A DNA stretch of 64,000 nucleotides from a virus (lineage: Duplodnaviria; Caudoviricetes). The notes beneath the pieces are model-generated. The model was not told the origin of the DNA. It ran no database searches and saw only the letters and a program-made list of their open reading frames with translations. This document shows, piece after piece, positions 10,326-63,700 of the stretch (positions are counted from its first letter, which is position 1; each line of letters begins with the position of its first letter). The stretch lies in the IMG/VR virus record IMGVR_UViG_3300037067_022526, positions 1-64,000 of that record. One strand, given 5' to 3'. A program made the position numbers and the translations under genes.

Positions 10326-10399
10326 CCGAGGGAGCGCATTTGGTAAGTGCGGGCAGTCTTATACACTGCTGTTAATGGGTTCGATTCCCGTCTCTCGGA
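10326..10399 (+). tRNA. tRNA-Ile(UAU)
   Basis: acceptor CCGAGGG/CTCTCGG; anticodon arm GCAGT-CT TAT AC-ACTGC; T-arm ATGGG-TTCGATT-CCCGT; no encoded CCA. Confidence 0.8.
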
Positions 10400-10408
10400 T
10401 CAGATTAT

Positions 10409-10483
10409 GGACCAGTAGCCTAATTGGTTTAGGCAGGAGACTGAAGATCTCTGCATTGTCGGTTCGAATCCGGCCTGTGTCCA
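10409..10483 (+). tRNA. tRNA-Phe(GAA)
   Basis: anticodon arm GGAGA-CT GAA GA-TCTCT; T-arm GTCGG-TTCGAAT-CCGGC; acceptor stem has a 1-nt bulge. Confidence 0.75.
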
Positions 10484-10486
10484 TTA

Positions 10487-10558
10487 GGGAACGTGATGTT
10501 AATGGTAGCATTTTCGACTCTTAATCGAACCGTGCGAGTCCGAATCTCGCCGTTCCCA
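10487..10558 (+). tRNA. tRNA-Lys(CUU)
   Basis: acceptor GGGAACG/CGTTCCC; TTCGA-CT CTT AA-TCGAA; atypical T-loop TCCGAAT. Confidence 0.85.
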
Positions 10559-10560
10559 TC

Positions 10561-10634
10561 GGGAGCGAAGCTGAGCAGGCACAGCACTAGCCTTTTAAGC
10601 TAGGGTTTTGTGGGTTCGAATCCCACTGCTCCCA
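10561..10634 (+). tRNA. tRNA-Lys(UUU)
   Basis: acceptor GGGAGCG/TGCTCCC; CTAGC-CT TTT AA-GCTAG; GTGGG-TTCGAAT-CCCAC. Confidence 0.85.
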
Positions 10635-26252: not shown

Positions 26253-26813
26253 ATGTCGTGGTTATTGAAACTTTATGGTTCTAATGTAAGTATTGATGAC
26301 CGCGCTGTTGAAAAAAAATTAATTATTGCCGATCGGGATAACCCTAGAATTAATGACACAGAATGGGACAGAGTCCAAGAATTGTTAAACGGCGATCATC
26401 CGTTATCGACGTTTAGACATAAGCACGATTCTGGTGCCCCTCGTAAAACCCAGTTGAATTTGGGCCCTGGTATGGGGTCACAAGATAGAGGAAATTCTGC
26501 TGGCGGTATGAACGCGGCTGGCGACGAAATGGAGCGAAACGACCCTCGAACACCTCGGTCATGGTATAATGAAGGGGATGCGCAGGCAGATGATGAGACT
26601 GGACCTGGAAATAAATCCATTATGCCAGCACCAGATGGAAGCCGTAATGATGGATACGCAGCACAGAGAATTTTTTTAGATAATGTTGATGCGTTCAGTC
26701 CTTTTATTGATAGGGATAACTCCCCACAGTCAGTGGTTCAGAAGAAACATTTGAATAGTATTTTAACATCTCGGCCTGTGCCTCCAAAGAGAGTTTTTGT
26801 AGATAGAAAGTAA
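26253..26813 (+). CDS. hypothetical protein; stop codon supplied by the IS end
   Basis: ORF ends AAG-TAA where GTAAACTAC is the element end. Confidence 0.75.
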   Translation: MSWLLKLYGSNVSIDDRAVEKKLIIADRDNPRINDTEWDRVQELLNGDHPLSTFRHKHDSGAPRKTQLNLGPGMGSQDRGNSAGGMNAAGDEMERNDPRTPRSWYNEGDAQADDETGPGNKSIMPAPDGSRNDGYAAQRIFLDNVDAFSPFIDRDNSPQSVVQKKHLNSILTSRPVPPKRVFVDRK

Positions 26814-27075
26814 ACTACTCTATGATAAATTCAAGGAGCTTGTGAGCGATGGAACACAACGTAAGAGTTTACTAGACTAAGAAGAAAGGAGACTATTATT
26901 CTACGTTAAGAGAACTACAATCACCCCGGAACGCCACCCTAATTCCAGGCTCTGAGCTAGAACCATTTAATAGCACGTTATTCTAGTTAATAGCTAAGTT
27001 TTCTTAACATTGTCGAAGGGTAGTATATTAGAGGTTCTCATAGCACCCACTTATCGTAAAGCTATGAAATTTTAG
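26810..27075 (+). ncRNA. omegaRNA scaffold, copy 1 (guide would lie in the upstream flank)
   Basis: non-coding segment upstream of the isrB start; CTACGTTA and AACATTGTCGAAGGG motifs typical of HEARO/omegaRNA. Confidence 0.8.
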
Positions 27076-27083
27076 GAGTTTAT

Positions 27084-27233
27084 ATGTTTTTTGTACCAGT
27101 AGTAGACCAGAACAATAATCCACTAATGCCCACCACTTTGCTAAGGGCTAAGAGATGGGTTAATTCTGGCAAAGCTACTCCATTCTATAAGAAAGGCATA
27201 TTTTGTGTTAAAATATTAAGGCGGAAGAAGTAA
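27084..27233 (+). pseudogene. isrB: truncated isrB (PLMP domain only, 49 aa)
   Basis: first 41 aa identical to the 47772 ORF, then deletion junction and TAA. Confidence 0.85.
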
Positions 27234-27344
27234 AGTTTAAAACTTATTTAAGTGTTAGGAGTAGGGATAATTCCTCTAGCCTAAAGATTGGGAGTTTTCT
27301 TATCCACAATAAAAAGTGAAAAGGAAAGTGAAAAGGAGATTGTA

Positions 27345-28205
27345 ATGGTAATTAATGGAACATCAAAGATTAAAGGCGTAATTGATTTGCCGAGTATAAA
27401 GCAACAACTCAAAAAGGGACAATTATTACATATTAGAAATAATGACTATTGGAATAATGATGTTCAAATGGCAATTAAAATGGGATTCGTTACATCAACA
27501 GACATTCCCAACGATGATAACGATGTTGACTCAGATGATACTCCCGTTCGATGCAAAAACAATTTTCATCGTTCAATTGGGTTGAATCAGAATAAATCAG
27601 AAATCAAACCAGGACAGGAATTTGTCCTGACAAGGAAAGAACTAGAAGAAAAATCCATCAGAGCAGCTCTGTCTAAAGGAATAATTACAATTATTTCTGA
27701 TCCAAATGATAACACAACAAAAGAAACAACTGTCAATATTACTAAAGGTTTGTCTGTTCCTGGCGACGGGATAAATACATCCGAACCAGAACTTACTTTA
27801 GACACAAATGAAGAAATCACTATTCCATCCAAATTAATTGAACCAAAGATAATTAAGGATCAGAAAAAGGTCATTTGGAATGCAAAACCAGGTGAAGAAA
27901 TTGTAGTAAAAAATACTTCAGGTGATGCCGATCCTAAACAACACACTATAATTGCTGGTCGAGATGGCCCCAAAGATGTTGCAATGAAACGTCGGATTGA
28001 CATGGAAGAAGATATATCCTTTGTGGACAAAAAAGAAGATGCTGATAGAATCCAAAAACATCCCATACTCAAGAATAAACCTTTACCACAGAACGAAGAA
28101 GTAAGTCCAATTGTTGAGGACCCGACAGAGACCAGGCGGAAGAATCATCCGGTATTAGGCAAAAAAGAAGGCGATGCGGAAGGCCCGGTATTTGTAAAAT
28201 TATGA
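27345..28205 (+). CDS. hypothetical protein
   Basis: AAGGAG RBS before ATG 27345. Confidence 0.75.
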   Translation: MVINGTSKIKGVIDLPSIKQQLKKGQLLHIRNNDYWNNDVQMAIKMGFVTSTDIPNDDNDVDSDDTPVRCKNNFHRSIGLNQNKSEIKPGQEFVLTRKELEEKSIRAALSKGIITIISDPNDNTTKETTVNITKGLSVPGDGINTSEPELTLDTNEEITIPSKLIEPKIIKDQKKVIWNAKPGEEIVVKNTSGDADPKQHTIIAGRDGPKDVAMKRRIDMEEDISFVDKKEDADRIQKHPILKNKPLPQNEEVSPIVEDPTETRRKNHPVLGKKEGDAEGPVFVKL

Positions 28206-38490: not shown

Positions 38491-41400
38491 ATGGGAAATA
38501 TTATACTGCCCGATGACCCAAACTGGAAGCAACCATTAATTATGGGAGACCCATTCGAACAAGGTCTCACTCCTAAATCGGCCCAAGAAAAAAGAAATAA
38601 AGAATTTGATAAACAGCGTGAATCTGAGGGAAATGTTTTTAAGTATGCGAATAGTGCAGTAGCACATCATCCTGAACCCTGGTTGAAAAATGCCCAAGTA
38701 ACTGGCGTGTCAAATATGATGACGAACCCAATGTGGTTCTCACCACTGCATACACCTCAGAATTGGCAAATAGCGAGCAAGAGACGTGAAATTTACCAAT
38801 GGAGCTACGTGACCAGTGACAAAAACCCTTGTTATTTGGTTAATTATGGGGATTTTTCCTTAGACGACATAAAAAATGTATATACAAAATGGCAGAATAA
38901 TTTTGCGGATAGAGGTAAAATGTATATACAAAATGACAAAGGCAAGAAGGCGAAGCCCGACATTTGCACTAAGCGATATGTTGAGAAAAAAGCCAATCGT
39001 ATAAAAGTATTAGGCAATCCTCATCCCATCGAAGTAACTCATGACCATAAATGTATAGTTATTAAACGAGAGGATGTAAAATGCCCAAAGGGCATTAGCA
39101 GATCCAAAAATTGTATTTTTCAAGCATGTTCTCCGACCTGCGAAAGAGTCAAATGCAAAGACTACGAGAATAAAAACTATAATATCTCTACCATTAATGC
39201 CGAGGATGTCAAGAAAGGCGACTATGTATTATGTCCATTTCCAACCGAAGTTAAAGAAAGCATTATAAAAACTAAAGAACAAGCTCGATTTGCTGGACAT
39301 TTAGCATCAGACGGATGGATATCTCAAAATAATTTTCCGATAACCAATGTTTGTATGCATCCGGATGAAACTGAATACGTTTTGTCATCTGTATCTCCAG
39401 TTTTTGAGTCTTTTGGTGCTGTTGTAAAACAAGAGTCTTTTGGAAATAATAAAGTAGTAGTTGTCAGAAGCGGGAAAAAATCCTTGCATGAATATAGCAG
39501 TAAATTAGTTAAAGGCAAAAACACGGATAAACATTTTACTGAAGAAGTAATGCTTTTAAACCCAGAACTACAAAAACACGTTTTAGGGGCTTATATACAA
39601 TCAGACGGATCATTTAATAAAACAATAGAACAAATAGAAATAACAACTGTTTCTAAACATTTGGCATATCAATTGCAGATAATGTGCTATCGTAATAAAA
39701 TCCTGGCATTTTGTAGTAAACAACCACGTAGACAAGGAAAAGGGTCGTTTAAAACAACAAATCTGGAATATTATATAGTTAGCATTCCCAAGACATTTGT
39801 ATATACATTACAAGATTATGTTCCAGGTAAAATTCCGGAACGTATATACAAACCTCAGCAAAAGTTAGGTGGTAGTTCGGGTGTTAATTTTATCAAAAAT
39901 GGGAAAAATATCAGTAGAATCTATAATAGATTCTTTTGGAAAAATTATGTCGTAACCCCTGTGGTATCAAACACTTCATTTGACTATAAAGGTGATGTAT
40001 ATGATATAAGGGTACCACCTACTCACGCAATAACCGCCAACGGCATAGCTATTCATCAATGTAGGTTTTTCTACGATTGTTTCACTCCGGATAATTTAGT
40101 TTTAATGGCAAATGGAACCGAAAAATCGATTAGCCAAATTGTTCCAGGAGATATGATCGTAGCCGGTGACGGAAGCATACAGCAAGTAAATAATGTTTTC
40201 AGAAGATGGACTAAAGAAAAAGTTCTTAGTATTCATGTTGCCGGGTCGAATATTCCAATTAAATGTACGACTAATCATAGAATTCCACGAGTATCTAAAG
40301 AATCATGGCAACAAAGTTGTGAAACAACCCCATCCGAGCGAAGAAAACGAGAAAGAAAAGAATCATTTGGAGAAACATCGCTAGAAGAAACATTCGATTC
40401 AGCCGACACTTTGTCCACAAGTTCGTATCTTTTTACTCCGCAATCTTCAATTGGAACTGGAATGGGTTGGGATTTACGAAAATGCTATCTATTAGGTGCT
40501 TTCACTGCAGAAGGAAGTTATTTTTATTACAATTATAAACCTACAAATAAACACACTCCAAAAGGTGTAAGATTTTCCATAAATTCAAATGAGATAGGTG
40601 ATGAAAATAAATTTGGAAATAGAATACAAAATTATTTATCAATCTTCCAAAATCATAAAGTTAGTACAACATATAACGGAAATTGTGCCGAAATAAGAGC
40701 TACTGATAAAAATCTAGCAAATGAAATAATGGAGTTTTGTGGGCATGGAGCAACCCAAAAAAGCATAACTGGTCAATTCATATCACAAGCAAACAAGGAA
40801 GAACTGCTTTCATTTTTAGCTGGATTTATTGATGGAGATGGTTGTTATAGTACTACTATGGGATGTCAGATCATTACTCATAGTGATGATCTGGCATCAC
40901 AAATTGCTTTTATCTGTGAGAAATTGGGTATTACATTTTCGACAACAACCACTAACAATATTAGAAAAAATAATAACTTTAAGGGACACAATATACGTAT
41001 TTCTCGATTCGCATGTGAAATCTTAAAGCCTTATTCGGTTAAAATTAATAATTTAGACACAAATCATACTAAATTTAGAGAATATCTGTTTATCAATAAC
41101 AAGTTGTATCGAAAAGTTAATAAGATATCTGAGTCAACCTATGAGGGGTGGGTATATGATTTGGAAATTGATAAAGTCCATAGTTATTGCGTAAACAGAT
41201 GTGTTGTTCATAATTCGGAGCCGAAGGTCGCTGCTGCAATAGACTTCTACTGCTTTACTCCTGATACTCAAATACTAATGTCCGATGGAACTCAAAAGTC
41301 TATTTCTTCTATTATGCCTGGTGAAATAGTGCGATCACATACTGGAAAAGCGAATAAAGTATTGAGAACTTTTAGCAGGCAATCCAGTGAAGATATTTTA

Positions 41401-44400
41401 AAAATTACTTATGCCGGTGTATTGTGTGGGAAGTTGAAACTTACACTTGGACATAAGGTCTTAACAGAAAAGAATGGTGAAATTAAATACGTTCAAGCTC
41501 AGGAATTACAAGTGGGTGATTATCTTCTTACTCCTTGTGGTTATGATGCTGAAGGTGAATGGGAAAATGGATTAGTTGATGATTTTGCATATCTTGTAGG
41601 TGTATACGCAGCAGAAGGCTGTGGTATGCCGTATGAACACATATCAAATAGAGGAAGAATTATAAGTTATTATAAGGGCGTTAAATTTGCCATATCACAA
41701 GAAGAACAGAGTTTTTGTGATACCATTGTGGAAAAAATAAAGATACTTTATGGTGATTGTAAGATTTCTTTAGTACCGGATAAAAATTCTAAAAAATTAG
41801 AAATTCGAGTATATGGCAGATCAATTGCAGATGATTTAATAGGTATTTGTCCAGGCACATCGAGTGATGGCACAAAAAGAATAATTCCACACATTATAAA
41901 AAACTGGAATGCCCGTCAAATGGCATCTTTCGTTTCTGGATTTTATGATGGCGATGGCTGTTATCAAAATAATGCTCCCACAGTTGGACTGGGTGTTTGC
42001 AAGCGATTACTTGAACAAGTAGCTAATATACTTGACAGGTTAGGCATAGAATATACATTTGCGAAAAGAAGACCGACTGGATTGGGAAGACAACAAGTTT
42101 ATATTGTGAGTATTCCTCGACGAGAAATGCCAAAGTTTACACACTTGTCAGCCAAAAAGATCATCTGGAACTCATATAATCAGCATTTCCGCCGCAATTG
42201 GTCAATATTCAAAAAAGGCAAGTATGTATATAGAGCGATAATAAAAATAGAGCAATCTCCATATGATGGTGCTCTGTATGATATGGAAGTTGAGAATGAC
42301 CACTCATATGTGGTAAACAGGATAAGCGTATCCAATAGTCGCTTTCCCATGAATGGCTTCAAACTTGAATGTAAAGATCCTAAAATACTCAAGTTTTTCG
42401 AGCATAAAGCAGCTAAGCGCCTAAGCCTTAACGAAAACTGCAAAATGATATCCAGTGAATGTCACATGCTGGGCGATGTATTCATACACATGGACGTTGA
42501 ATGTCCAGTGTGCCAAGGTATTGGGGTTAACCCAGATTCCGGTGAAATTTGCAACCATCCCGGAGGTAACTTTAAAAAGATGCGCATACTCAATCCAGAT
42601 TGGATTGAAGTGCAACAAAACATTATGGCAGATGAGCCAAGTATAGTTTTCGTACCCGACGAAGAGCTTAAACGTATAGTATTCTATAAACAACCTAAAA
42701 ACATATATGACAGAATACCTAATGCAATTAAATCTCTGGTGTTACAAAACAAACCTATCCCATTAAGCAACAGAACAACATCGCATTTGAAATATATGCC
42801 TGTGCCTTATGGCACTTATGGCACATCACTGATCAGAAGATTGTTCACTACTCTAGCTTATAAGACTAAAATTATGACTGCTAACTGGATAGTCGCCGAG
42901 CGATTGATTCTGCCAGTTCGTGTTGTGCAAATAGGTAGCGATGATAGACCAGCAACAAGTGCTGACATAGCCGATGTCCAGCAGCAATTAGCTGCAACTG
43001 CTAATGACCCTAATTTAACCATTGTGACCCACCATAACTTCAAGTACGAGTGGTACGGCGCTTGTCATGATGATCAGACAGAAGTTCTAACTGATACTGG
43101 ATTCAAGACTTATGACCAAGTTGATATCACAAAAGACAAGATTTGTATATACAATCTAGAAGAAAATAAGACAGAATGTATATACGCCACAGATAAATAT
43201 GTCTACGACTATGATGGTGAGATGATCCATTTCCACAATAGAAGACTAGATATATTAGTTACTCCAAATCATAAAATGCTATATCGATGGAGTAATAAAG
43301 ATTCATGGAAAACTGAGGAAGCATCTGAACTAAAATGTTCTACCAGATTGCTTGGAGCAGCAAAATTTGAGGGGTTTATTAAATCTGGTGGATCTATTTA
43401 TGCAAAAGAGGATAAGTATTACGTAAGAATAGGTGACAGCAGTATTGAATTGAGCAAATTCTGTAAATTTATTGGATATTACCTGTCAGAAGGAACATTG
43501 AATAACAAAAAGAGTAATTATCATGTAGCAATTTACCAGAATACCTCTAAAGAGTGCTTCTCTGATATCGAAGACACTATGAGTGATATGGGGTTCCATG
43601 TTACTGAGTATGCGGATAATCGAAATCCTGATGATTGCAGATTTATTATATCAAATAAGGAATTGGTAACATTTATTAATGAGCATTTTAAACATGGTTC
43701 ATTGAATAAAACCATTCCTAATTGGATTAAAAATTTGCCGCGGAATTATTTAAAGTTGATATTTAATTCTATGATTAATGGTGATGGATATAGGCATCCA
43801 ACTGTTAATACTGAGAGCTTTACTTATACGACTGTTTCTAAGTCTTTGGCTGATGATATACAAGAAATTGCTTTTAAGTGCGGTTATTCTACCTGCATTC
43901 GTAAAGCAAAGAAACCTGATTATAAATCATTCGGTAAAAATACAATATACAGAGTCCACATAAGCATGGGTAAATTCTCTAATGGCAGTTATCCAATTGT
44001 ACGAGAAAAAGATATTACCAGAGTTCCATATAAAGGTAAAGTATGGTGTTTCACAGTTCCTACTGGATTCTTTGTGACTCGCCGTAATGGTAAAATCACT
44101 ATCCAGGGTAACAGCGGCAAAATATTGCAAATAACTCAGGAAATGGAGTATATAGGTAAAGAAATACTCGACGGATTTATGCTAAACCAGTCACTACTGA
44201 ATGGGGAGATGTGTATTCCCGAAACTGACAAGATGTTAACAAAATCTGGATTAAAAAATCTTAATCAAATAGACAAAGATGATGAGATTGCGACATTCAA
44301 TAAAGAAACAGGGATGTTGGAATATCAAAAACCAACCGAGATTCATGTATACGACTGGAATGATGATCTGATTCATTTCCGGACCGATCGTATTGATTTT

Positions 44401-47400
44401 GCTTGTACGCCAAATCATCGAATGTTATATCAAAAAAGAGACAGCGATAAGTGGATTGTGGATACTGCAGATAAAGTATCTGATCGTGTCAAATTCCGAA
44501 AACGAGTTAATTGGTTGGGAGGTGAAGTCCCAGAAAATGTCATTGTTGGTGACAATGAGATTTCCGTAGATCAATATGTTGCCCTCATGGCATATTATGT
44601 AACCGAAGGATATACTCGCAAAGAGAGCAGAACCGCTCGCAAGACTTATAAACAGCCGATATCATTATGCGTATATCAATCTGTAAAAGGCAAGGGATAT
44701 AATGATGTTTGTGAGTTATTCGAATCTCTGCCATACAAATATTCTCATGACGAAAAACACGATTCATTTGCAATTCATAACAAAACATTAGCTATGTATC
44801 TACAAATGGAATGTGGAGATGGCAGTTATAATAAACACTTGCCGGATTGGGTAAAAGAATTGCCAAGACCGTATCTGCAGAAATTATTGCGACACATGAT
44901 TAATGGAGATGGTTCAATTAGAACAAGAGATCGAGGTGAGCCAAAACAATATTATGTGTATTATACTCGTAGTAGGCAATTAAATGCAGACATTCTAGAA
45001 GTTGCGTTAAAGTGTGGATATTGGCCGCGTTATCGATATAGCGAGAAGCGTGGGTATGAACTCGCATTTTCGGATTATGATCTTAACAAAGAAACTTTGC
45101 CGCTTGAATCCAAAAAGTATAAGACCATAACTCGTCTTCCATATAAAGGTAAAGTTTGGTGTGTTACTGTTCCTAATGGATTTATAATCACTGAACGAAA
45201 TGGTAAATTAAGCATCCATTCGAATTCGGGCTACCAAAGTGCTCAGGTTGGTGTTGAAACACTTATTCGACGTATTGAGTCCTGGAGACACACCCTAGCC
45301 GAATGGATACAAGAACGTATATTTAAACCCATAGCTGAAATGCAGGGATTTATTGATAACGAAGAGAGCGAAGAAATAGGAGAATTATCCTTTATATATC
45401 CTGAAATCAAATGGAATGATTTGAATCTAAAAGATAAAACTCAATACTTCCAATTGCTTAACCAATTGCATGACAAACAACTTATTTCTTCTCAAACCTT
45501 ATTAGAAGAGATGGATTTCAAATGGGATCAGGAAGTCAAGCGTATGCGATACGAGCAAGCACAAGCTGGTCCTATGGGTATGGGTGCGGGGCTGGGAGGC
45601 GCAGCCGGTGGTGCCGGTGGTATGCCTTTGGGCGGAGGCGGTGGAGGTGCTGGTGGTCCTCCAATGCCAGGCGAAGGTGCTCCAGGTATGGCAGGTGGCG
45701 TAGGTGGTATGGATATGGGCATGGGTGGTGGAGGTATGCCAGGTGCAATGCCTGCCACAGCAGGAGCTGGTGGCAAAATAATGAAGCCTGGCAAAGAGAA
45801 AAAATTTGAACAGCAGAAAACAGATGGACAAATGATGAATGCCATGCCTGTTAAACTAACAAGTATCGAGCAGAAGGTGGCCGATACCTTAGTTGGTTTA
45901 AGCCAGATGTATCGCATAAACCCGCAGAAAATAAGAGTTCAATTTCCAGTACAAAATCCTCACGGAGGCCCGCCTTATCAGCTAGATTTTGCATTGCCTG
46001 ATTTAAAACTTAATGTCGAGTGCTTATTACCTGGTGCTGTAATAGAAACAGATAATGGATACAAAAAAGTTGAGGATGTTTTATCATCAGATAAATTATT
46101 TGACAAATATGGCAAACATACTAAAATTGTGCATAAATTTGTTCAAGAATATGATGGGGAAGTTGCCAAAATTTGCGCTATAGGAATGTTTAATCTGGAT
46201 GTAACTTCATCGCACAAGTTGTGGATTTCTAAGCCCAAGAAAACCAGAGTAGTTCGCGATGAGCCCCGGATAACACGAACAAGAGAATATTTGCAACCGG
46301 ATATACCACAATTTATATGCGTTAAAGAAGCAGAAGTTGGTGACTATGTAATAATTCCTAAGCGAAAGACCAATAGCACTTCTCGCATTATAAACTTACA
46401 ACAATATATAACTAATAATTGTAAAAAGATTCCAGAGCAAATAAATCTTGATATTAAAACATCTAGATTGCTAGGGATCTATGTTGCTGAGGGATGTGCA
46501 TCTGATAGCGGCTCAATTGTATTTTCGTTTTCAGAAAATGAAAAGGATTACATTAATGAGACAGAAACATTGATGGATGAAATTTTTGGAATTAAATTAG
46601 GAAAGATTTATTTTGGAAAGGGAGCAGCGCGGGTATATTTTCAGAGCACTCCATTATCTAAGTTCTTCAATGAAGTATGTGGTAAGTATGCTAGAAATAA
46701 AAAAGTTCCTAGTATGATGTTTAATACCAGTGAAGAAAACATTAAATCCTTTATTCAAGGAGTGATGGATGGAGACGGGTGCATGCGGAATGAGTCGGAA
46801 TGGCGTATTCAGACATCTTCAAAATCATTAGCTTTGGGTATACAGCAACTTTGTGCTACTATTGGAATCTGGGCACCTATTGTTATTAGTAGGATTGATG
46901 GGACATATAATATTCGAGGGCGAAGTGGTATTCAACATTCGCTTTTTGAAATTACAATAAATTGGAATCCACGAAAGAGAAGATATCGCGAAGATGATGA
47001 TTATTTCTATATTCCAATTAGAAAAATAATATTTTCGTCATACAGTGGAATTAGATATAATTTCGAAACAGAAGACCATTCTTATTGTGTAAATAACATG
47101 GTTTCAAAAAATTGCGATGGTGACATATGGCACAGTAATCCTGAGCAGGCGTCCGATGATCAGAAACGAGATAATACTTTAGCCCAACGCGGATGGACTG
47201 TTTTACGGTTTGATGATAAGGCAATTGAAGAGACCCCACAAGCAGTGAGAAATACTATCGGTAAATTTATTAACGCGATTCTAGAAAGCAAAAAATCGAA
47301 AACTGCATCTACCGATGAATTTGGTGCTGCAAAGTTATATACTGCTAAATCAGGAGAGATCTATGATTTAAGGGACGAATATAATAAATTCGTTAAAACG

Positions 47401-47502
47401 AAATTTTCCGGGGAATCCTTCGGAGGCGATGCTCAACAACAAGAATCGTCGTTTTCTAAAGCTAAATATACCTCAGTTAAAAGTGAGGAGTTTAAACAGT
47501 AA
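38491..47502 (+). CDS. portal protein with six inteins and a C-terminal DUF559-like domain (791 aa after splicing)
   Basis: located between terL and the protease; exteins join to EIYQW-CRFFYD-SEPKVAAAIDFY-SRFP...GDVF...LNPDWI...YGTSLIRR; six Hint domains with LAGLIDADG motifs. Confidence 0.85.
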   Translation: MGNIILPDDPNWKQPLIMGDPFEQGLTPKSAQEKRNKEFDKQRESEGNVFKYANSAVAHHPEPWLKNAQVTGVSNMMTNPMWFSPLHTPQNWQIASKRREIYQWSYVTSDKNPCYLVNYGDFSLDDIKNVYTKWQNNFADRGKMYIQNDKGKKAKPDICTKRYVEKKANRIKVLGNPHPIEVTHDHKCIVIKREDVKCPKGISRSKNCIFQACSPTCERVKCKDYENKNYNISTINAEDVKKGDYVLCPFPTEVKESIIKTKEQARFAGHLASDGWISQNNFPITNVCMHPDETEYVLSSVSPVFESFGAVVKQESFGNNKVVVVRSGKKSLHEYSSKLVKGKNTDKHFTEEVMLLNPELQKHVLGAYIQSDGSFNKTIEQIEITTVSKHLAYQLQIMCYRNKILAFCSKQPRRQGKGSFKTTNLEYYIVSIPKTFVYTLQDYVPGKIPERIYKPQQKLGGSSGVNFIKNGKNISRIYNRFFWKNYVVTPVVSNTSFDYKGDVYDIRVPPTHAITANGIAIHQCRFFYDCFTPDNLVLMANGTEKSISQIVPGDMIVAGDGSIQQVNNVFRRWTKEKVLSIHVAGSNIPIKCTTNHRIPRVSKESWQQSCETTPSERRKRERKESFGETSLEETFDSADTLSTSSYLFTPQSSIGTGMGWDLRKCYLLGAFTAEGSYFYYNYKPTNKHTPKGVRFSINSNEIGDENKFGNRIQNYLSIFQNHKVSTTYNGNCAEIRATDKNLANEIMEFCGHGATQKSITGQFISQANKEELLSFLAGFIDGDGCYSTTMGCQIITHSDDLASQIAFICEKLGITFSTTTTNNIRKNNNFKGHNIRISRFACEILKPYSVKINNLDTNHTKFREYLFINNKLYRKVNKISESTYEGWVYDLEIDKVHSYCVNRCVVHNSEPKVAAAIDFYCFTPDTQILMSDGTQKSISSIMPGEIVRSHTGKANKVLRTFSRQSSEDILKITYAGVLCGKLKLTLGHKVLTEKNGEIKYVQAQELQVGDYLLTPCGYDAEGEWENGLVDDFAYLVGVYAAEGCGMPYEHISNRGRIISYYKGVKFAISQEEQSFCDTIVEKIKILYGDCKISLVPDKNSKKLEIRVYGRSIADDLIGICPGTSSDGTKRIIPHIIKNWNARQMASFVSGFYDGDGCYQNNAPTVGLGVCKRLLEQVANILDRLGIEYTFAKRRPTGLGRQQVYIVSIPRREMPKFTHLSAKKIIWNSYNQHFRRNWSIFKKGKYVYRAIIKIEQSPYDGALYDMEVENDHSYVVNRISVSNSRFPMNGFKLECKDPKILKFFEHKAAKRLSLNENCKMISSECHMLGDVFIHMDVECPVCQGIGVNPDSGEICNHPGGNFKKMRILNPDWIEVQQNIMADEPSIVFVPDEELKRIVFYKQPKNIYDRIPNAIKSLVLQNKPIPLSNRTTSHLKYMPVPYGTYGTSLIRRLFTTLAYKTKIMTANWIVAERLILPVRVVQIGSDDRPATSADIADVQQQLAATANDPNLTIVTHHNFKYEWYGACHDDQTEVLTDTGFKTYDQVDITKDKICIYNLEENKTECIYATDKYVYDYDGEMIHFHNRRLDILVTPNHKMLYRWSNKDSWKTEEASELKCSTRLLGAAKFEGFIKSGGSIYAKEDKYYVRIGDSSIELSKFCKFIGYYLSEGTLNNKKSNYHVAIYQNTSKECFSDIEDTMSDMGFHVTEYADNRNPDDCRFIISNKELVTFINEHFKHGSLNKTIPNWIKNLPRNYLKLIFNSMINGDGYRHPTVNTESFTYTTVSKSLADDIQEIAFKCGYSTCIRKAKKPDYKSFGKNTIYRVHISMGKFSNGSYPIVREKDITRVPYKGKVWCFTVPTGFFVTRRNGKITIQGNSGKILQITQEMEYIGKEILDGFMLNQSLLNGEMCIPETDKMLTKSGLKNLNQIDKDDEIATFNKETGMLEYQKPTEIHVYDWNDDLIHFRTDRIDFACTPNHRMLYQKRDSDKWIVDTADKVSDRVKFRKRVNWLGGEVPENVIVGDNEISVDQYVALMAYYVTEGYTRKESRTARKTYKQPISLCVYQSVKGKGYNDVCELFESLPYKYSHDEKHDSFAIHNKTLAMYLQMECGDGSYNKHLPDWVKELPRPYLQKLLRHMINGDGSIRTRDRGEPKQYYVYYTRSRQLNADILEVALKCGYWPRYRYSEKRGYELAFSDYDLNKETLPLESKKYKTITRLPYKGKVWCVTVPNGFIITERNGKLSIHSNSGYQSAQVGVETLIRRIESWRHTLAEWIQERIFKPIAEMQGFIDNEESEEIGELSFIYPEIKWNDLNLKDKTQYFQLLNQLHDKQLISSQTLLEEMDFKWDQEVKRMRYEQAQAGPMGMGAGLGGAAGGAGGMPLGGGGGGAGGPPMPGEGAPGMAGGVGGMDMGMGGGGMPGAMPATAGAGGKIMKPGKEKKFEQQKTDGQMMNAMPVKLTSIEQKVADTLVGLSQMYRINPQKIRVQFPVQNPHGGPPYQLDFALPDLKLNVECLLPGAVIETDNGYKKVEDVLSSDKLFDKYGKHTKIVHKFVQEYDGEVAKICAIGMFNLDVTSSHKLWISKPKKTRVVRDEPRITRTREYLQPDIPQFICVKEAEVGDYVIIPKRKTNSTSRIINLQQYITNNCKKIPEQINLDIKTSRLLGIYVAEGCASDSGSIVFSFSENEKDYINETETLMDEIFGIKLGKIYFGKGAARVYFQSTPLSKFFNEVCGKYARNKKVPSMMFNTSEENIKSFIQGVMDGDGCMRNESEWRIQTSSKSLALGIQQLCATIGIWAPIVISRIDGTYNIRGRSGIQHSLFEITINWNPRKRRYREDDDYFYIPIRKIIFSSYSGIRYNFETEDHSYCVNNMVSKNCDGDIWHSNPEQASDDQKRDNTLAQRGWTVLRFDDKAIEETPQAVRNTIGKFINAILESKKSKTASTDEFGAAKLYTAKSGEIYDLRDEYNKFVKTKFSGESFGGDAQQQESSFSKAKYTSVKSEEFKQ

Positions 47503-47765
47503 ACTACTCCAGTCTAAAGACCGGGAGCTTGTGAGTGATGGAACACAACGTAAGAGTTTACTAGACTAAGAAGAAAGGAGACTATTATTCTACGTTAAGA
47601 GAACTACAATCACCCCGGAACGCCACCCTAATTCCAGGCTCTGAGCTAGAACCATTTAATAGCACGTTATTCTAGTTAATAGCTAAGTTTTCTTAACATT
47701 GTCGAAGGGTAGTATATTAGAGGTTTTCATAGCACCCACTTATCGTAAAGCTATGAAATTTTGGA
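47499..47765 (+). ncRNA. omegaRNA scaffold, copy 2
   Basis: about 270-nt non-coding region before isrB, near-identical to copy 1. Confidence 0.8.
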
Positions 47766-47771
47766 GTTTAT

Positions 47772-48806
47772 ATGTTTTTCGTACCAGTAGTAGATCAGAA
47801 CAATAATCCACTAATGCCTACAACTTTATTAAGAGCTAAGAGATGGGTTAATTCTGGCAAAGCTACTCCATTCTATAAGAAAGGTATATTTTGTGCTAGA
47901 CTCAACGTAAAGACACCAAACACTCATAAACAAGAAATTGTGGTAGGCATCGATCCTGGCTCTAAACGAGAAGCCTACACAATTAAATCAGAAGCTCACA
48001 CTTATCTAAATATTCTAACAGAAACGCCTGACTGGGTTAAAGATGCTGTAGAGCGACGTAGGAACATGCGTAGAGCTAGAAGATTCAGAAACACACGTTA
48101 TCGTGAAGCCAGGTTTGATAACAGAAAATCAAAGAAATTAGCCCCTAGCACAAAAGCCAGATGGCAACTCAAATTAAATATATGTAAGTGGCTAGAGAAA
48201 ATTTTCCCAATAACACACTATGTAGTAGAAGATATTAAAGCTAAGACTTGGAAGAATGCCAAGAAATGGAATGTAAGTTTCTCTCCATTAGAAGTAGGCA
48301 AACAGTGGTTCTATGAAGAAATAAAACAACTAGGCATCTTAGAAACCAAGCAGGGATATGAAACCAAAGAATTAAGAGATAATGCTGGTTTGAAAAAAAG
48401 TAGTTCTAAGCTAGACGATAAATTTGAGTGCCACAATGTAGATAGTTGGGTATTGGCTAACTGGTTAGTAGGTGGGCACGTAAAACCAGATAACACTTCT
48501 ATTATTAAGCTAGTACCTCTTAGGTTTCATAGAAGACAATTGCACGCTTTGCAACCTTCGACTGGTGGAGCAAGGAAACCTTATGGTAGTACTAGGAGTT
48601 TGGGGTTAAAACGAGGTAGTTTAGTTAAACATAAAAAGTATGGTTTGTGCTACGTTGGTGGTACAATGAACGACAGGATTAGCGTGCATTCATTGAACGG
48701 TGGTAAGAGGCTGGCTCAGAATGTGAGGGTGGAAGATTGTGAATTTAGAACTTATTTAAGCGAAAGGAGAAGTCGTCTTCCCTCTACGGGGGTTAAATCT
48801 CTGTAG
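47772..48806 (+). CDS. isrB: IsrB RNA-guided nickase
   Basis: PLMP, RuvC-I GIDPG, bridge helix RRNMRRARR, RuvC-II VVEDI, RuvC-III HNVDS; 344 aa with no HNH. Confidence 0.88.
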   Translation: MFFVPVVDQNNNPLMPTTLLRAKRWVNSGKATPFYKKGIFCARLNVKTPNTHKQEIVVGIDPGSKREAYTIKSEAHTYLNILTETPDWVKDAVERRRNMRRARRFRNTRYREARFDNRKSKKLAPSTKARWQLKLNICKWLEKIFPITHYVVEDIKAKTWKNAKKWNVSFSPLEVGKQWFYEEIKQLGILETKQGYETKELRDNAGLKKSSSKLDDKFECHNVDSWVLANWLVGGHVKPDNTSIIKLVPLRFHRRQLHALQPSTGGARKPYGSTRSLGLKRGSLVKHKKYGLCYVGGTMNDRISVHSLNGGKRLAQNVRVEDCEFRTYLSERRSRLPSTGVKSL

Positions 48807-48825
48807 TTTCTAGACGGCGATTTTT

Positions 48826-49233
48826 ATGATTATAATTGAAGCCGGGCGCAGACGAATTAAAGATAAAGGAATTAAGTGGAGTGAAGACTACGGCGAAAAA
48901 TCCGAAGAAGTAAAAAAGCGGTTCGAGAAAATTTTGCCTGGATCTTATTTTAGGTGGGTCGGCAAGGACTATGAAGATGCCTGCATGAGATATGTTGTGG
49001 TTGGACCCGCTATTTCAAAACGCGAAGGCAAAGCATTTTTTGCTGGCAATAAGAAGATGCCTAATAATCCCAAGAAGAAAGCATTCAGCCCGTCGGGAAA
49101 GTATTTTCCTACTCTTGGTTCTGCCCTGAGATATGCAAATGATATGTGGGGAGTTTCAATGCCCAAAAATGCTGGTAAATATACTCGTATAGATTTACAA
49201 GGTATTGATATACCAAAACACGTTAAGGGATAA
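48826..49233 (+). CDS. hypothetical basic protein
   Basis: ATG directly after the IS end; its original RBS (GAGGAG) lies left of the IS. Confidence 0.75.
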   Translation: MIIIEAGRRRIKDKGIKWSEDYGEKSEEVKKRFEKILPGSYFRWVGKDYEDACMRYVVVGPAISKREGKAFFAGNKKMPNNPKKKAFSPSGKYFPTLGSALRYANDMWGVSMPKNAGKYTRIDLQGIDIPKHVKG

Positions 49234-61724: not shown

Positions 61725-61834
61725 CAAAATTATTTCTTCATAGATGATATTACCTTGTATAATGTATTATGAAGCAGTGCTAAAATGTATATACATTGGC
61801 ATTTGCTGGTATTGTATATACAATTGGAGATAGT

Positions 61835-63700
61835 ATGGCGGAAAGAAAAATATTTAATTTCAAATCAGAGATGCTCGTAGACCTGACTATTAAAAATGAG
61901 GGATATCATCCTGATACATTTGGCAGGACTTCGAATAAGTTTATATGGGCTACTTGTAGATTTTGCGGAGAACCATCTCGTATACGCAAGGGGCATTTTA
62001 TTAAGAAAGGTTCAGCTTGCCATAAAGAATGCCGATTCAAAGAACAAAGCATTTCAGGATCACCCTTTGCCGATCCAGAAGTCAAAGAAAAAACTCGACA
62101 AACCAACCTTGCTAGATATGGTGTGGAACATGCCAGCCAGAATAAAGAAATAGCCAAGAGGATATCTCAAAGCCGTATGACTGAAGAAAGTAAAGCCAAA
62201 TCTGCAAACACTAATTTGGATAGATATGGTGTTGTGAATCCCTTTCAATCAGAAGAAATCAAAGAAAAATGCAAACAAACCAACCTAGAGAAATATGGCA
62301 CAGAGCATGCCATGCAAAGCGATGAGATCAAAAAGAAAACCATTGAAACTCTGAAATCTAAGTATGGTGTTGACAATTTAGCCAGTATTCCGGGAGCGAA
62401 AGATAAAAAAATACTAACCAATATGGAACGATATGGTTGTGAAAACCCGATGCAGAGTGAAGAGATAAAGAGCAAAACAAAAGATACAAATATTAGCAAA
62501 TACGGTGTATCGAATCCAATGCAAAATGAATCAATACGACAGAAAGCCTACGAGACCAATATTGAAAAATACGGATATCCACATGCTCTACAAAACAAAG
62601 ACATTATGGCATCTGCGACCGCGTCATTCAAAAAATCAGTCATTGCAAACGAAAGCGGAAAATTTAATCTATCTAATGCTCTTCGAGGCAATAAATTCTG
62701 GGAAGCCATGAAAGAAGGAAAATCCATAAAACAACTATGCGAAGAATTTGATTTACAAGCCAATAGTTTAGGTGCTCGGCTTCTTAATCCTGAATTTGCT
62801 CAGCTTTATTATAACACTTATACCTTTCCCAAAAATCAAATGCAACGAGATGTGATGAATGAAATTCAGAAATATCCGATTACTATTATTTTTAATGATC
62901 ATAGAACAATTAAACCATTTGAGTTAGATATTTATTTTCCAGATAATAATTTTGCAATAGAATTTAATGGTAATTTCTGGCATTCTGAAGCATATCTATC
63001 ACAAGATAAAGCGAAAACTAAACATATAAATAAAACCAGACTATGTCAGGAAAAAGGCGTTCGTCTTTTTCATATTTTTGAACATCAATGGATTAAACGT
63101 AGATTTCAAATACTTAATTTCATTAAAACTATTTTAGGTGTTAATTCTATTAAAATAGCAGCTCGTAAATGTACTATAACAGAAGATATGTGCAAGAAAT
63201 TTTATGACGATAATCACATACAAAGTTGGGGTAAAAGAACTATCAAATGTTTTAACCTTGTTTATAATAATGAGATAGTTGCAAGTATGTCTGCTGCCTC
63301 TCATCATCGTCAGAATGTTGATAAGAATGCCATAGTTCTTAATAGGTTATGTTTTAAAGACGGCGTTAATGTTCAGGGTGGATCAACTAAACTATTTAAA
63401 CATTTCATTGACTGGGCCAAATCTGAGGGCTATAATAAAATTATTTCATGGTCTGACAACTGCTGGACCGATGGTGGTATATATAAAGTTCTGGGATTTA
63501 CGTTAGAAGAAGAATATGGTCCCGATTACTTTTATTGGGATAATAAAAACAGAATTACCAGATCTAAACAGAGTCAACAGAAGAAGAAAACCGGTTGTCC
63601 AGAAGATATGACCGAACGAGAATGGTGCATCCAAAATAATTTATATCGCGTTTGGAACTGCGGTAAAAAGAAATGGATCTTTAATCTTGTGGAGAAATGA
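61835..63700 (+). CDS. homing-endonuclease-like protein: TN...KYG repeats, PD-(D/E)xK domain, GNAT-like C-terminus
   Basis: about 7 T.L.[KR]YG..N..Q repeats; ELDIYFP...IEFNGNFWHS; GGSTKL...IISWSD...G.IY..LGF. Confidence 0.75.
   Translation: MAERKIFNFKSEMLVDLTIKNEGYHPDTFGRTSNKFIWATCRFCGEPSRIRKGHFIKKGSACHKECRFKEQSISGSPFADPEVKEKTRQTNLARYGVEHASQNKEIAKRISQSRMTEESKAKSANTNLDRYGVVNPFQSEEIKEKCKQTNLEKYGTEHAMQSDEIKKKTIETLKSKYGVDNLASIPGAKDKKILTNMERYGCENPMQSEEIKSKTKDTNISKYGVSNPMQNESIRQKAYETNIEKYGYPHALQNKDIMASATASFKKSVIANESGKFNLSNALRGNKFWEAMKEGKSIKQLCEEFDLQANSLGARLLNPEFAQLYYNTYTFPKNQMQRDVMNEIQKYPITIIFNDHRTIKPFELDIYFPDNNFAIEFNGNFWHSEAYLSQDKAKTKHINKTRLCQEKGVRLFHIFEHQWIKRRFQILNFIKTILGVNSIKIAARKCTITEDMCKKFYDDNHIQSWGKRTIKCFNLVYNNEIVASMSAASHHRQNVDKNAIVLNRLCFKDGVNVQGGSTKLFKHFIDWAKSEGYNKIISWSDNCWTDGGIYKVLGFTLEEEYGPDYFYWDNKNRITRSKQSQQKKKTGCPEDMTEREWCIQNNLYRVWNCGKKKWIFNLVEK

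What the first reader, a model, noticed from the sequence alone, without database searches (positions are those of the whole stretch)
47480..48835. OMEGA element inserts at NTGA stop codons and brings its own replacement stop
Seen: removing 47499-48825 gives GAGGAG TTT AAA CA|A TGA, the portal's Gln-stop overlapping the next gene's ATG with its RBS correctly spaced. With the element it reads CAG TAA, the same protein. Removing 26810-27315 gives AGA AAG TGA versus AGA AAG TAA. The 3' flanks of the three copies are ATGA, GTGA and ATGA. Known: the characterised IsrB TAM is NTGA. Inference: the GTAA end rescues the stop codon and destroys the TAM (self-protection), letting the element colonise essential operons and draw guides from conserved gene ends.
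Basis: partly seen in the sequence, partly recalled or inferred. Interest (0 to 1): 0.8.

Follow-up and report, generated by a model that had tools for sequence, protein, structure and literature searches.

The report
IsrB transposon parked on gene junction
A small mobile element carrying the RNA-guided nickase IsrB sits exactly on the four-letter ATGA where a phage's portal gene stops and the next gene starts, and its unusual first letters (GTAA) give the portal gene back its stop codon; the element type and its ATGA target were already known, but this gene-junction parking and the stop-restoring end do not appear in the papers I could search.

Summary
The core observation holds. Bases 47499-48825 are an intact, non-autonomous IsrB/omegaRNA element (ISC1 type, IS200/IS605 superfamily) in a 137.8-kb phage. 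A second, gene-less copy (26810-27315) also ends its upstream ORF with the element's TAA. The genome holds two copies, not three.

The interpretation needs changing.
- **Target:** N|ATGA with a 5'-GTCA end has been published since 2016.
- **Survey:** of 114 relatives with both ends placed, 107 abut ATGA. The ATG is the downstream gene's start in about 70% (21% in controls). The TGA is an upstream stop in 30% of phage copies and only 6% of cellular ones.
- **Conclusion:** the family parks on start codons, and stop/start overlaps are the phage subset.
- **Usual end:** GTCA gives the host protein a 5-residue tail.
- **GTAA:** rare, found only in viral or metagenome contigs, arose several times, and restores the exact protein in three lineages. 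Its link to stop sites is only suggestive.
- **"TAM destruction":** generic to these elements.

Earlier notes of this scan saw start-codon parking on other DNA. This is a new variant of a known kind, of moderate interest.

The parts
38491..47502 (+). Host gene: portal-like ORF (3003 aa) with several inteins. Its stop codon TAA (47500-47502) lies inside the element.
   Evidence: ORF list; PHROG portal hit phrog_16240 and intein/LAGLIDADG/Hint Pfam hits.
47483..47498 (+). Last 16 nt of the portal gene. This is the expected guide segment of the omegaRNA and its target in an empty allele. It contains the former ribosome-binding site GAGGAG (47485-47490) of the downstream gene.
   Evidence: Sequence. 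Guide position is inferred from IscB/IsrB biology (PMC9581776; Meers 2023).
47499..48825 (+). Element copy 1: complete non-autonomous IsrB (ISC1) element, 1327 bp.
   Evidence: Left end is HEARO model position 1 and covariance model R1. The right end precedes ATGA. Empty sites in L005-L008. Family element lengths are 1256-1347 bp.
47499..47502 (+). Left-end tetranucleotide GTAA (family norm GTCA). The G completes the last host codon (CAG) and the TAA is the host stop.
47499..47771 (+). omegaRNA scaffold (HEARO RF02033 match 47499-47717, 94.2 bits against a gathering score of 83). The first stem GUAAACU/AGUUUAC carries a compensated C3-to-A change.
47772..48806 (+). isrB, 344 aa: PLMP/RRXRR N-terminus, split RuvC, no HNH hit. 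D61, E153, H221 and D224 sit in invariant columns of the alignment of 25 homologues.
   Evidence: Pfam PF14239 E 1.2e-38. Best solved relative is DtIsrB 8DMB, E 1.9e-35, or 5e-48 with a profile. Alignment A1.
48782..48825 (+). Right end: weak subterminal hairpin (CTAC...GTAG), then GTTTCT plus 14 nt. No Shine-Dalgarno-like motif.
   Evidence: Comparison with family right ends; folds not better than shuffles; SD count.
48826..48829 (+). ATGA: target site / TAM. The ATG is the start of ORF 48826-49233. In the empty allele the TGA is the portal stop.
48826..49233 (+). Downstream host gene (135 aa, no family hit), now separated from its former ribosome-binding site by the element.
26253..26813 (+). 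Host ORF (186 aa) whose stop TAA (26811-26813) lies in the left end of copy 2.
26810..27315 (+). Element copy 2: deletion derivative of 506 bp. It has an omegaRNA (26810-27028, 90.7 bits), the first ~45 codons of isrB (27086-27210), then a divergent right end with hairpin, GTTTTC and 16 nt.
27316..27319 (+). GTGA flank of copy 2 (NTGA). The TGA would be the stop of ORF 26253 in an empty site. The next gene starts at 27345.
   Evidence: The empty site is not verified.

Best explanation
Copy 1 is an intact, non-autonomous IsrB/omegaRNA insertion sequence (ISC1, IS200/IS605 superfamily). It was inserted by a Y1 transposase supplied in trans, immediately 5' of an ATGA, and then kept or spread by IsrB-guided nicking of empty alleles.

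In this phage that ATGA was the 4-nt overlap between the portal gene's TGA stop and the next gene's ATG. The element lies in the sense orientation, so read-through transcription from the portal gene would make an omegaRNA whose guide is the last ~16 nt of that gene.

Insertion replaces N|ATGA by N|GTAA on the left. The G keeps the last codon synonymous and the TAA stops the portal protein at its native end. The ATG of the downstream gene stays intact at the right end.

Copy 2 is a gene-less derivative with a 95-96% identical omegaRNA scaffold. It lies at a GTGA stop and could be served in trans by the IsrB of copy 1.

Family-wide, these elements survive where ATGA is a gene boundary, because only there does an insertion leave both reading frames whole. 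The usual GTCA end costs the upstream protein a 5-residue tail (Ser-Thr-Thr-Pro-x). GTAA is a rarer variant that removes this cost.

Shown here: the anatomy, the empty sites for copy 1, and the family statistics. Inferred: the transposase in trans, nicking and homing, read-through transcription, and any selective advantage of GTAA.
For: **Identity of the element**
- RRXRR E 1.2e-38.
- HEARO 94.2 and 90.7 bits.
- DtIsrB is the best solved relative.
- No Y1 transposase in the complete genome.

**Empty sites**
- Four related phages have ...A|ATGA... with the upstream TGA overlapping the downstream ATG.

**Survey of 114 non-redundant relatives with both ends placed**
- 107 abut ATGA.
- The ATG opens a long ORF in 29/40 viral and 47/67 cellular loci, against 21% of control ATGAs in the same flanks (p 2e-11 and 2e-16).
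- The TGA closes an ORF of 80 codons or more in 12/40 viral loci against 3% of controls (p 4e-8).

**Left ends**
- GTCA in 129 of 139 and GTAA in 5.
- GTCA elements at stop sites give tails STTPL, STTLG, STTLS, SITPP and STTPP.
- GTAA elements W1, W2, L021 and L083 all end a 134-667-codon host ORF exactly at the TAA, with a synonymous last codon.
- GTAA lineages are scattered among GTCA neighbours on the IsrB tree.
- In this phage the C3-to-A change is compensated in the first stem.

**Transcription and literature**
- No plus-strand terminator-like site in the element.
- N|ATGA target and GTCA terminus (PMC4810608).
- NTGA/NTG TAMs (PMC9581776).
- Sense-orientation bias relative to the upstream gene (Meers 2023).
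Against: - No empty allele of this very phage was found. Contigs of two other studies carry the occupied form.
- The empty site of copy 2 is unverified.
- The link between GTAA and stop sites is weak statistically: about 4 of 5 evaluable GTAA lineages against about one third of viral GTCA elements (my estimate, p about 0.06). Two GTAA ends (L033, L070) do not use the TAA. Other position-3 variants (GTTA, GTGA) also occur.
- The right-end hairpin of copy 1 is degenerate and folds no better than shuffles, so the copy may no longer be mobile.
- The downstream gene has lost its GAGGAG and gets no Shine-Dalgarno motif from the element. Its expression is unexplained.
- Eleven viral loci have the upstream ORF in the third frame, overlapping the downstream start by 8-89 nt. 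Not all insertions are scarless.
- Right ends of relatives were placed by similarity, not by empty sites.
Confidence: 0.7

Rival explanations
1. GTAA is a neutral or slightly harmful variant of the left end. The in-frame TAA is incidental, because any element at an ATGA overlap gets a stop within 5 codons from the conserved hairpin loop, and such tails are tolerated.
For: - GTCA elements sit at 12 of 40 phage ATGA stop sites with 5-residue tails.
- Position 3 also varies to T or G.
- L033 and L070 carry GTAA without using it.
- In L021 and L083 the change is uncompensated in the stem.
- The association is not significant.
Against: - GTAA was found only in viral or metagenome contigs (0 of 78 cellular), where stop/start overlaps are common.
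- Three independent lineages combine GTAA with an exact, synonymous restoration of the host C-terminus.
- In this phage the variant is compensated in the stem and present in both copies, so it predates at least one transposition.
Confidence: 0.35
2. The gene-junction pattern owes nothing to the element. Insertion is random among ATGA sites, and purifying selection in compact genomes removes everything except boundary insertions.
For: - The target is only 4 nt.
- This genome has 1631 ATGA sites, of which 22 are stops of long ORFs.
- Stop-site use tracks gene packing: 30% in phages against 6% in cyanobacteria.
Against: This is largely compatible with the best explanation rather than a true alternative. 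Some element features look fitted to boundaries:
- an in-frame stop in the first hairpin loop or at GTAA;
- Shine-Dalgarno-like right ends in 40% of cyanobacterial copies against 8% at random;
- isrB running to the target's TGA in 8 of 44 phage copies.
Confidence: 0.3
3. The phage uses the element as a weapon. The IsrB-omegaRNA nicks the portal/next-gene junction of co-infecting relatives that lack the element, giving gene conversion or exclusion, as free-standing homing endonucleases do in phages.
For: - The guide would match a conserved late-operon junction.
- Related phages have empty ATGA junctions.
- The phage is already full of homing elements, with several inteins in the same gene.
- isrB is intact.
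Against: - The 16 nt upstream of the junction are not conserved in the four relatives, so the present guide would not match them.
- IsrB is a nickase.
- No empty allele was seen in the metagenomes.
- No expression data.
Confidence: 0.15

Closest known systems
ISC1 transposons such as ISC1-1_MA of Microcystis aeruginosa (Kapitonov, Makarova and Koonin 2016, PMC4810608)
   Same: - Encodes only an HNH-less IscB (IsrB).
- About 1.3 kb.
- Left terminus begins GT.
- Inserted at N|ATGA without target duplication.
- Non-autonomous and dependent on a Y1 transposase elsewhere.
   Different: - Left end GTAA instead of GTCA.
- Resident in a phage.
- That paper does not relate the ATGA to start or stop codons ('start codon' and 'stop codon' each occur 0 times in it).
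DtIsrB-omegaRNA of Desulfovirgula thermocuniculi (PDB 8DMB; Hirano et al. 2022, PMC9581776)
   Same: - Best solved relative (E 1.9e-35 over residues 4-297).
- omegaRNA encoded upstream of the gene.
- NTGA TAM, matching the ATGA and GTGA flanks here.
   Different: - The last ~45 residues, which hold the TAM-reading Arg323 and Gln326 of DtIsrB, do not align by sequence. TAM reading is therefore inferred from the flanks only.
- Nothing here was tested biochemically.
IscB and omegaRNA-only IS605-family elements of Geobacillus stearothermophilus (Meers et al. 2023, bioRxiv 10.1101/2023.03.14.532601)
   Same: - The transposase and the nuclease read the same flanking motif.
- The guide is taken from the flank, and the nuclease cuts the empty donor joint.
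- Elements lie in the same orientation as the upstream gene.
- ORF-less omegaRNA copies exist, like copy 2.
   Different: - Those are IscB (with HNH) in a bacterial chromosome that has its own TnpA.
- Placement on start or stop codons and replacement stops were not described there.
Inteins, group I introns and IStrons (works like, not a member)
   Same: Selfish elements that live inside essential or conserved genes by leaving the gene product intact. The same portal gene carries several inteins.
   Different: There is no splicing here. Harmlessness comes from landing on the stop/start boundary and from the element's own stop codon.

Membership tests
IsrB / ISC1 OMEGA element (IS200/IS605 superfamily) | Protein with a PLMP/RRXRR N-terminus and split RuvC, without an HNH insert | tested here: met
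   - PF14239 E 1.2e-38, no HNH family hit, 344 aa.
- Best PDB match is DtIsrB 8DMB.
- D61, E153, H221 and D224 are in invariant columns of A1.
IsrB / ISC1 OMEGA element (IS200/IS605 superfamily) | Structured omegaRNA (HEARO) directly upstream of the gene on the same strand, starting at the element's end | tested here: met
   RF02033 full-length matches of 94.2 and 90.7 bits, above the gathering score of 83.
IsrB / ISC1 OMEGA element (IS200/IS605 superfamily) | Insertion 5' of a 4-nt target (N|ATGA or NTGA) without target-site duplication | tested here: met
   - Copy 1: four element-free relatives have a single ATGA at the junction.
- Copy 2: GTGA flank, empty site not verified.
- 107 of 114 relatives abut ATGA.
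IsrB / ISC1 OMEGA element (IS200/IS605 superfamily) | Subterminal imperfect hairpins for the Y1 transposase | tested here: inconclusive
   Relatives share a hairpin, then GTTTCC, then 13-17 nt before ATGA. The hairpin of copy 1 is degenerate, with a fold z-score of 0.25.
IsrB / ISC1 OMEGA element (IS200/IS605 superfamily) | Y1 (TnpA) transposase available for mobilisation | tested here: not met
   No PF01797 match in the complete 137.8-kb phage genome. This is usual for ISC elements, which are non-autonomous. The host genome is unknown.
IsrB / ISC1 OMEGA element (IS200/IS605 superfamily) | omegaRNA-guided, TAM-dependent nicking of the non-target strand | not testable with these tools
   Needs biochemistry. 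The TAM-reading residues of DtIsrB could not be aligned.
Rfam HEARO (RF02033) | Score at or above the curated gathering score over the full model | tested here: met
   Both copies match model positions 1-211. Most IsrB relatives score below the cut-off, with 3 of 49 records above it.

The most novel reading that the evidence does not exclude
Phage-borne IsrB elements have evolved into translationally 'transparent' cassettes for ATGA stop/start junctions of tightly packed, essential operons. Three features would serve this:
- a left end that stops the upstream protein, either at once (GTAA, arisen repeatedly) or after 5 codons (the hairpin-loop stop of GTCA elements);
- an isrB frame that in many phage copies runs to the target's own TGA, so that the ATGA coupling to the downstream gene is rebuilt;
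- a guide drawn from the conserved gene end, so that the element homes into element-free relatives during co-infection.

On this reading GTAA is an adaptation, not drift.
Probability: 0.3. Interest if true: 0.7.

Novelty: new variant of a known kind. Interest (0 to 1): 0.5.

Why it matters
OMEGA nucleases (IscB, IsrB, TnpB) are the ancestors of Cas9 and Cas12, and it is still debated how their non-autonomous elements persist.

The 4-nt target read by both transposase and nuclease (ATGA) is also the commonest stop/start overlap and a very common start context (ATG followed by A). If so, the elements have a ready supply of safe landing sites in compact genomes. That would explain the published sense-orientation bias, and it would put their guides on gene ends.

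The replacement stop, at GTAA or in the hairpin loop, shows how an insertion can sit inside an essential phage operon without changing the proteins.

Practically, it gives a rule for finding element boundaries, guides and TAMs of uncharacterised IsrB systems from sequence alone.

Tried and rejected
- **Third copy.** None found in the genome by Rfam at E up to 0.1, by the IsrB protein, by blastn with word size 7, by Pfam RRXRR, or by my model R1.
- **nhmmer.** A search with the window's omegaRNA found only 4 of 160 relatives. The Rfam HEARO model matched only 29 of 49 viral records. I therefore built a 5'-domain covariance model.
- **IMG/VR pattern scan for more GTAA ends.** It returned almost only chance matches: 1 of 80 loci was confirmed by the model, and that one was already known.
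- **Empty sites.** None found for copy 2, for the GTCA element L030 or for the GTAA element L021. Only the occupied contigs came back.
- **Phage GenBank collection.** No DNA match to the region.
- **Public runs.** Contigs of a landfill and a groundwater study carry the occupied allele at both junctions, and no contig skips the element. Contigs drop rare variants, so this says nothing about rare empty alleles.
- **TAM-reading residues.** Mapping those of DtIsrB failed because the C-terminal 45-84 residues do not align by sequence.
- **My first right-end heuristic.** It misplaced several ends (TTGG calls) and was replaced.
- **The variable 14 nt after GTAAACTACTC.** I considered that it might be an internal guide and rejected this. 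It is the first omegaRNA hairpin, with compensatory changes between the two copies.


Full report
**What is there**

The window is the first 64 kb of a complete 137,762-bp virus record with inverted terminal repeats.
- At 47772-48806 lies a 344-aa ORF with a strong RRXRR match (PF14239, E 1.2e-38) and no HNH hit. Its best solved relative is the OMEGA nickase DtIsrB (8DMB; E 1.9e-35, or 5e-48 with a profile).
- Directly upstream, 47499-47717 matches Rfam HEARO, the IscB/IsrB omegaRNA, over the whole model at 94.2 bits (gathering score 83).
- A second full match lies at 26810-27028, at 90.7 bits.
- The two copies share 270 nt at 96% and a further 143 nt at 92%. Copy 2 then loses the isrB frame after about 45 codons and jumps to a divergent right end. 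It is a gene-less omegaRNA derivative.
- The genome has no Y1 transposase, so both copies are non-autonomous.
- Only two copies exist.

**The junctions**

*Copy 1*
- The left end starts GTAAAC at 47499. The 3003-aa ORF 38491-47502 ends CAG TAA, with the G and the TAA supplied by the element.
- That ORF is portal-like (phrog_16240) and carries several inteins.
- The right flank is ATGA at 48826, whose ATG opens a 135-aa ORF.
- Removing 47499-48825 gives GAGGAG, 8 nt, then ATGA, with CAA TGA. This is a classic 4-nt stop/start overlap.

*Empty sites*

This reconstruction is borne out by four related IMG/VR phages. The homologue of the 135-aa gene (73-78% identity) starts at an ATGA. The TGA of that ATGA closes a long upstream ORF homologous to the C-terminal part of the portal-like ORF. 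No element lies between them.

*Copy 2*
- ORF 26253-26813 ends AAG TAA in the element.
- The right flank is GTGA, and deletion gives AAG TGA.
- The only relatives found (37-39% aa identity) keep the gene order without an element but stop with TAG 10 nt before the next ATG. The exact empty site is therefore unverified.

*Chance*

About 1.6% of the TGA trinucleotides in this genome close an ORF of 80 aa or more.

**What was already known**

- Kapitonov, Makarova and Koonin (2016) defined ISC1 elements, which are IsrB elements. They showed by empty sites that the elements begin 5'-GT(CA) and insert at N|ATGA without duplication. The paper does not mention start or stop codons (PMC4810608).
- DtIsrB needs an NTGA TAM, and other IsrBs need NTG (PMC9581776).
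- Meers et al. showed that transposase and nuclease read the same flanking motif, and that IscB elements lie in the orientation of the upstream gene.
- So the target, the terminus and 'the element separates the guide target from the TAM' are not new. Any left end destroys the TAM, not only GTAA.

**Family survey**

*Method*
- I fetched 80 viral and 80 cellular (mostly cyanobacterial) IsrB loci.
- Left ends were placed with a covariance model of the omegaRNA 5' domain.
- Right ends were placed by similarity to the conserved end, which is a hairpin, then GTTTCC, then 13-17 nt.

*Flanks*

| Measure | Viral | Cellular | Control ATGAs in same flanks |
|---|---|---|---|
| Flank is ATGA | 40 of 45 | 67 of 69 | n/a |
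| ATG opens an ORF of 80 codons or more | 72% | 70% | 21% (p 2e-11; 2e-16) |
| TGA closes an ORF of 80 codons or more | 30% (p 4e-8) | 6% (not significant) | 3%; 2% |

All figures are, on 114 non-redundant loci with both ends placed, 107 of which abut ATGA. The family therefore sits on start codons, and stop/start overlaps are the subset typical of tightly packed phage genomes.

*Earlier notes*

Earlier notes of this scan reached the start-codon conclusion on other genomes. My counts are independent of them and agree.

*Shine-Dalgarno motifs*

I checked their 'replacement Shine-Dalgarno' idea. It holds for 40% of cyanobacterial copies (8% at random) but only 10% of phage copies, and not for copy 1.

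**The replacement stop**

- The left end is GTCA in 129 of 139 loci and GTAA in 5.
- When a GTCA element sits on a TGA stop, the host frame reads G|TCA ACT ACC CCN NNC and stops at the conserved TAA or TGA of the first hairpin loop. This adds Ser-Thr-Thr-Pro-x.
- With GTAA the stop is immediate and the last codon stays synonymous:
  - CAA to CAG here;
  - AAA to AAG in L021;
  - TCA to TCG in L083.
- Where the host stop overlapped the ATG by one base (TAATG), the element's first G restores TAG. This occurs in L039, L058 and L318.
- GTAA lineages (this phage, L021, L083, L070, L318, and L033 by a deletion) are scattered among GTCA neighbours on the IsrB tree. All come from viral or metagenome contigs.
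- In this phage the C-to-A change is compensated in the first omegaRNA stem (GUAAACU pairs with AGUUUAC). It is present in both copies, so it predates a transposition.
- In L021 and L083 the change is uncompensated.
- The association of GTAA with stop sites is only suggestive: about 4 of 5 evaluable lineages against about a third of viral GTCA elements. Position 3 also varies to T or G.
- I therefore treat 'GTAA restores the stop' as shown, and 'GTAA is an adaptation' as possible.

**Mechanism proposed**

1. A Y1 transposase from the host inserts the element 5' of ATGA.
2. Only insertions at gene boundaries survive.
3. Read-through transcription from the upstream gene yields an omegaRNA whose guide is the gene's last ~16 nt. 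The scan found neither a terminator-like nor a sigma-70 promoter-like site on the element's plus strand.
4. IsrB nicks empty alleles next to ATGA and recombination reinstalls the element.

These steps are inferred from the cited work, not shown here.

**Open points**

- The downstream gene has lost its GAGGAG, and isrB stops 19 nt before its ATG. How that gene is translated is unknown.
- In 8 of 44 phage relatives isrB instead runs to the TGA of the target itself, which would rebuild the coupling.
- The right-end hairpin of copy 1 is degenerate, so the copy may be stranded.
- Public contigs from a landfill and a groundwater study show the occupied allele at both junctions. No contig skips the element.

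**Verdict**

- The 'TAM equals stop codon' idea is half right. The target is the known N|ATGA, and its main biological meaning is the start codon.
- The stop-codon aspect applies to phage ATGA overlaps.
- The GTAA end is a genuine, recurrent, stop-restoring variant whose adaptive value is unproven.
- It is a new variant of a known kind, of moderate interest.

Noticed in passing
window 38491-47502: The portal-like gene is a 3003-aa ORF with several inteins: four LAGLIDADG_3 stretches, Intein_splicing and Hom_end/Hint hits, and an internal 82-nt repeat at 44024 and 45137. It ends in a DUF559/MTES_1575 endonuclease-like domain that the related phages L005-L008 also carry at the end of their homologues.
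   Followed up: partly
window 10326-10634: A cluster of four tRNA genes on the plus strand.
   Followed up: no
metagenome contigs laid on window 47504-47553: In the landfill run, and by its loose end in the groundwater run too, a further omegaRNA copy has a GTCA-type end and a different left flank. It lies on a 61-kb contig of the same depth as the phage, and its flank is absent from the window. Either a second replicon or a co-occurring relative carries a sister element.
   Followed up: partly
L022, L029, L038, L055, L079, L084, L086, L089 (right ends): In 8 of 44 phage-borne relatives the isrB frame runs to the very end of the element and uses the TGA of the flanking ATGA as its own stop, so isrB and the downstream host gene overlap by ATGA. 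Only 2 of 69 cellular copies do this.
   Followed up: partly
L083 around 1774 and its right end; L296 around 447 and its right end: Nine to ten bases of the left flank recur at the right end of the element (GGTGATTTC; TGCAAACA). This is unexpected for elements that make no target duplication, and it is unexplained. It also makes the right boundary of L296 ambiguous.
   Followed up: no
L093-L172 (cyanobacterial copies), last 17 nt of the element: A Shine-Dalgarno-like GGAG/GAGG/AGGA motif lies 4-17 nt before the flanking ATG in 40% of copies whose ATG opens a long ORF, against 8% of random 14-mers. Phage copies show 10%, and the copy in this window has none.
   Followed up: yes
L023 1711-1848; L073 1502 and 1802; L020 68 and 2427; L171 376 and 1781: Some relatives carry a tandemly duplicated left end or two omegaRNA 5' domains close together on one contig.
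   Followed up: no
window 62077-62450: Four copies of a 59-nt unit (61-75% identical to the reference copy) at irregular spacing inside ORF 61796-63700. This is probably a repeated protein motif.
   Followed up: no
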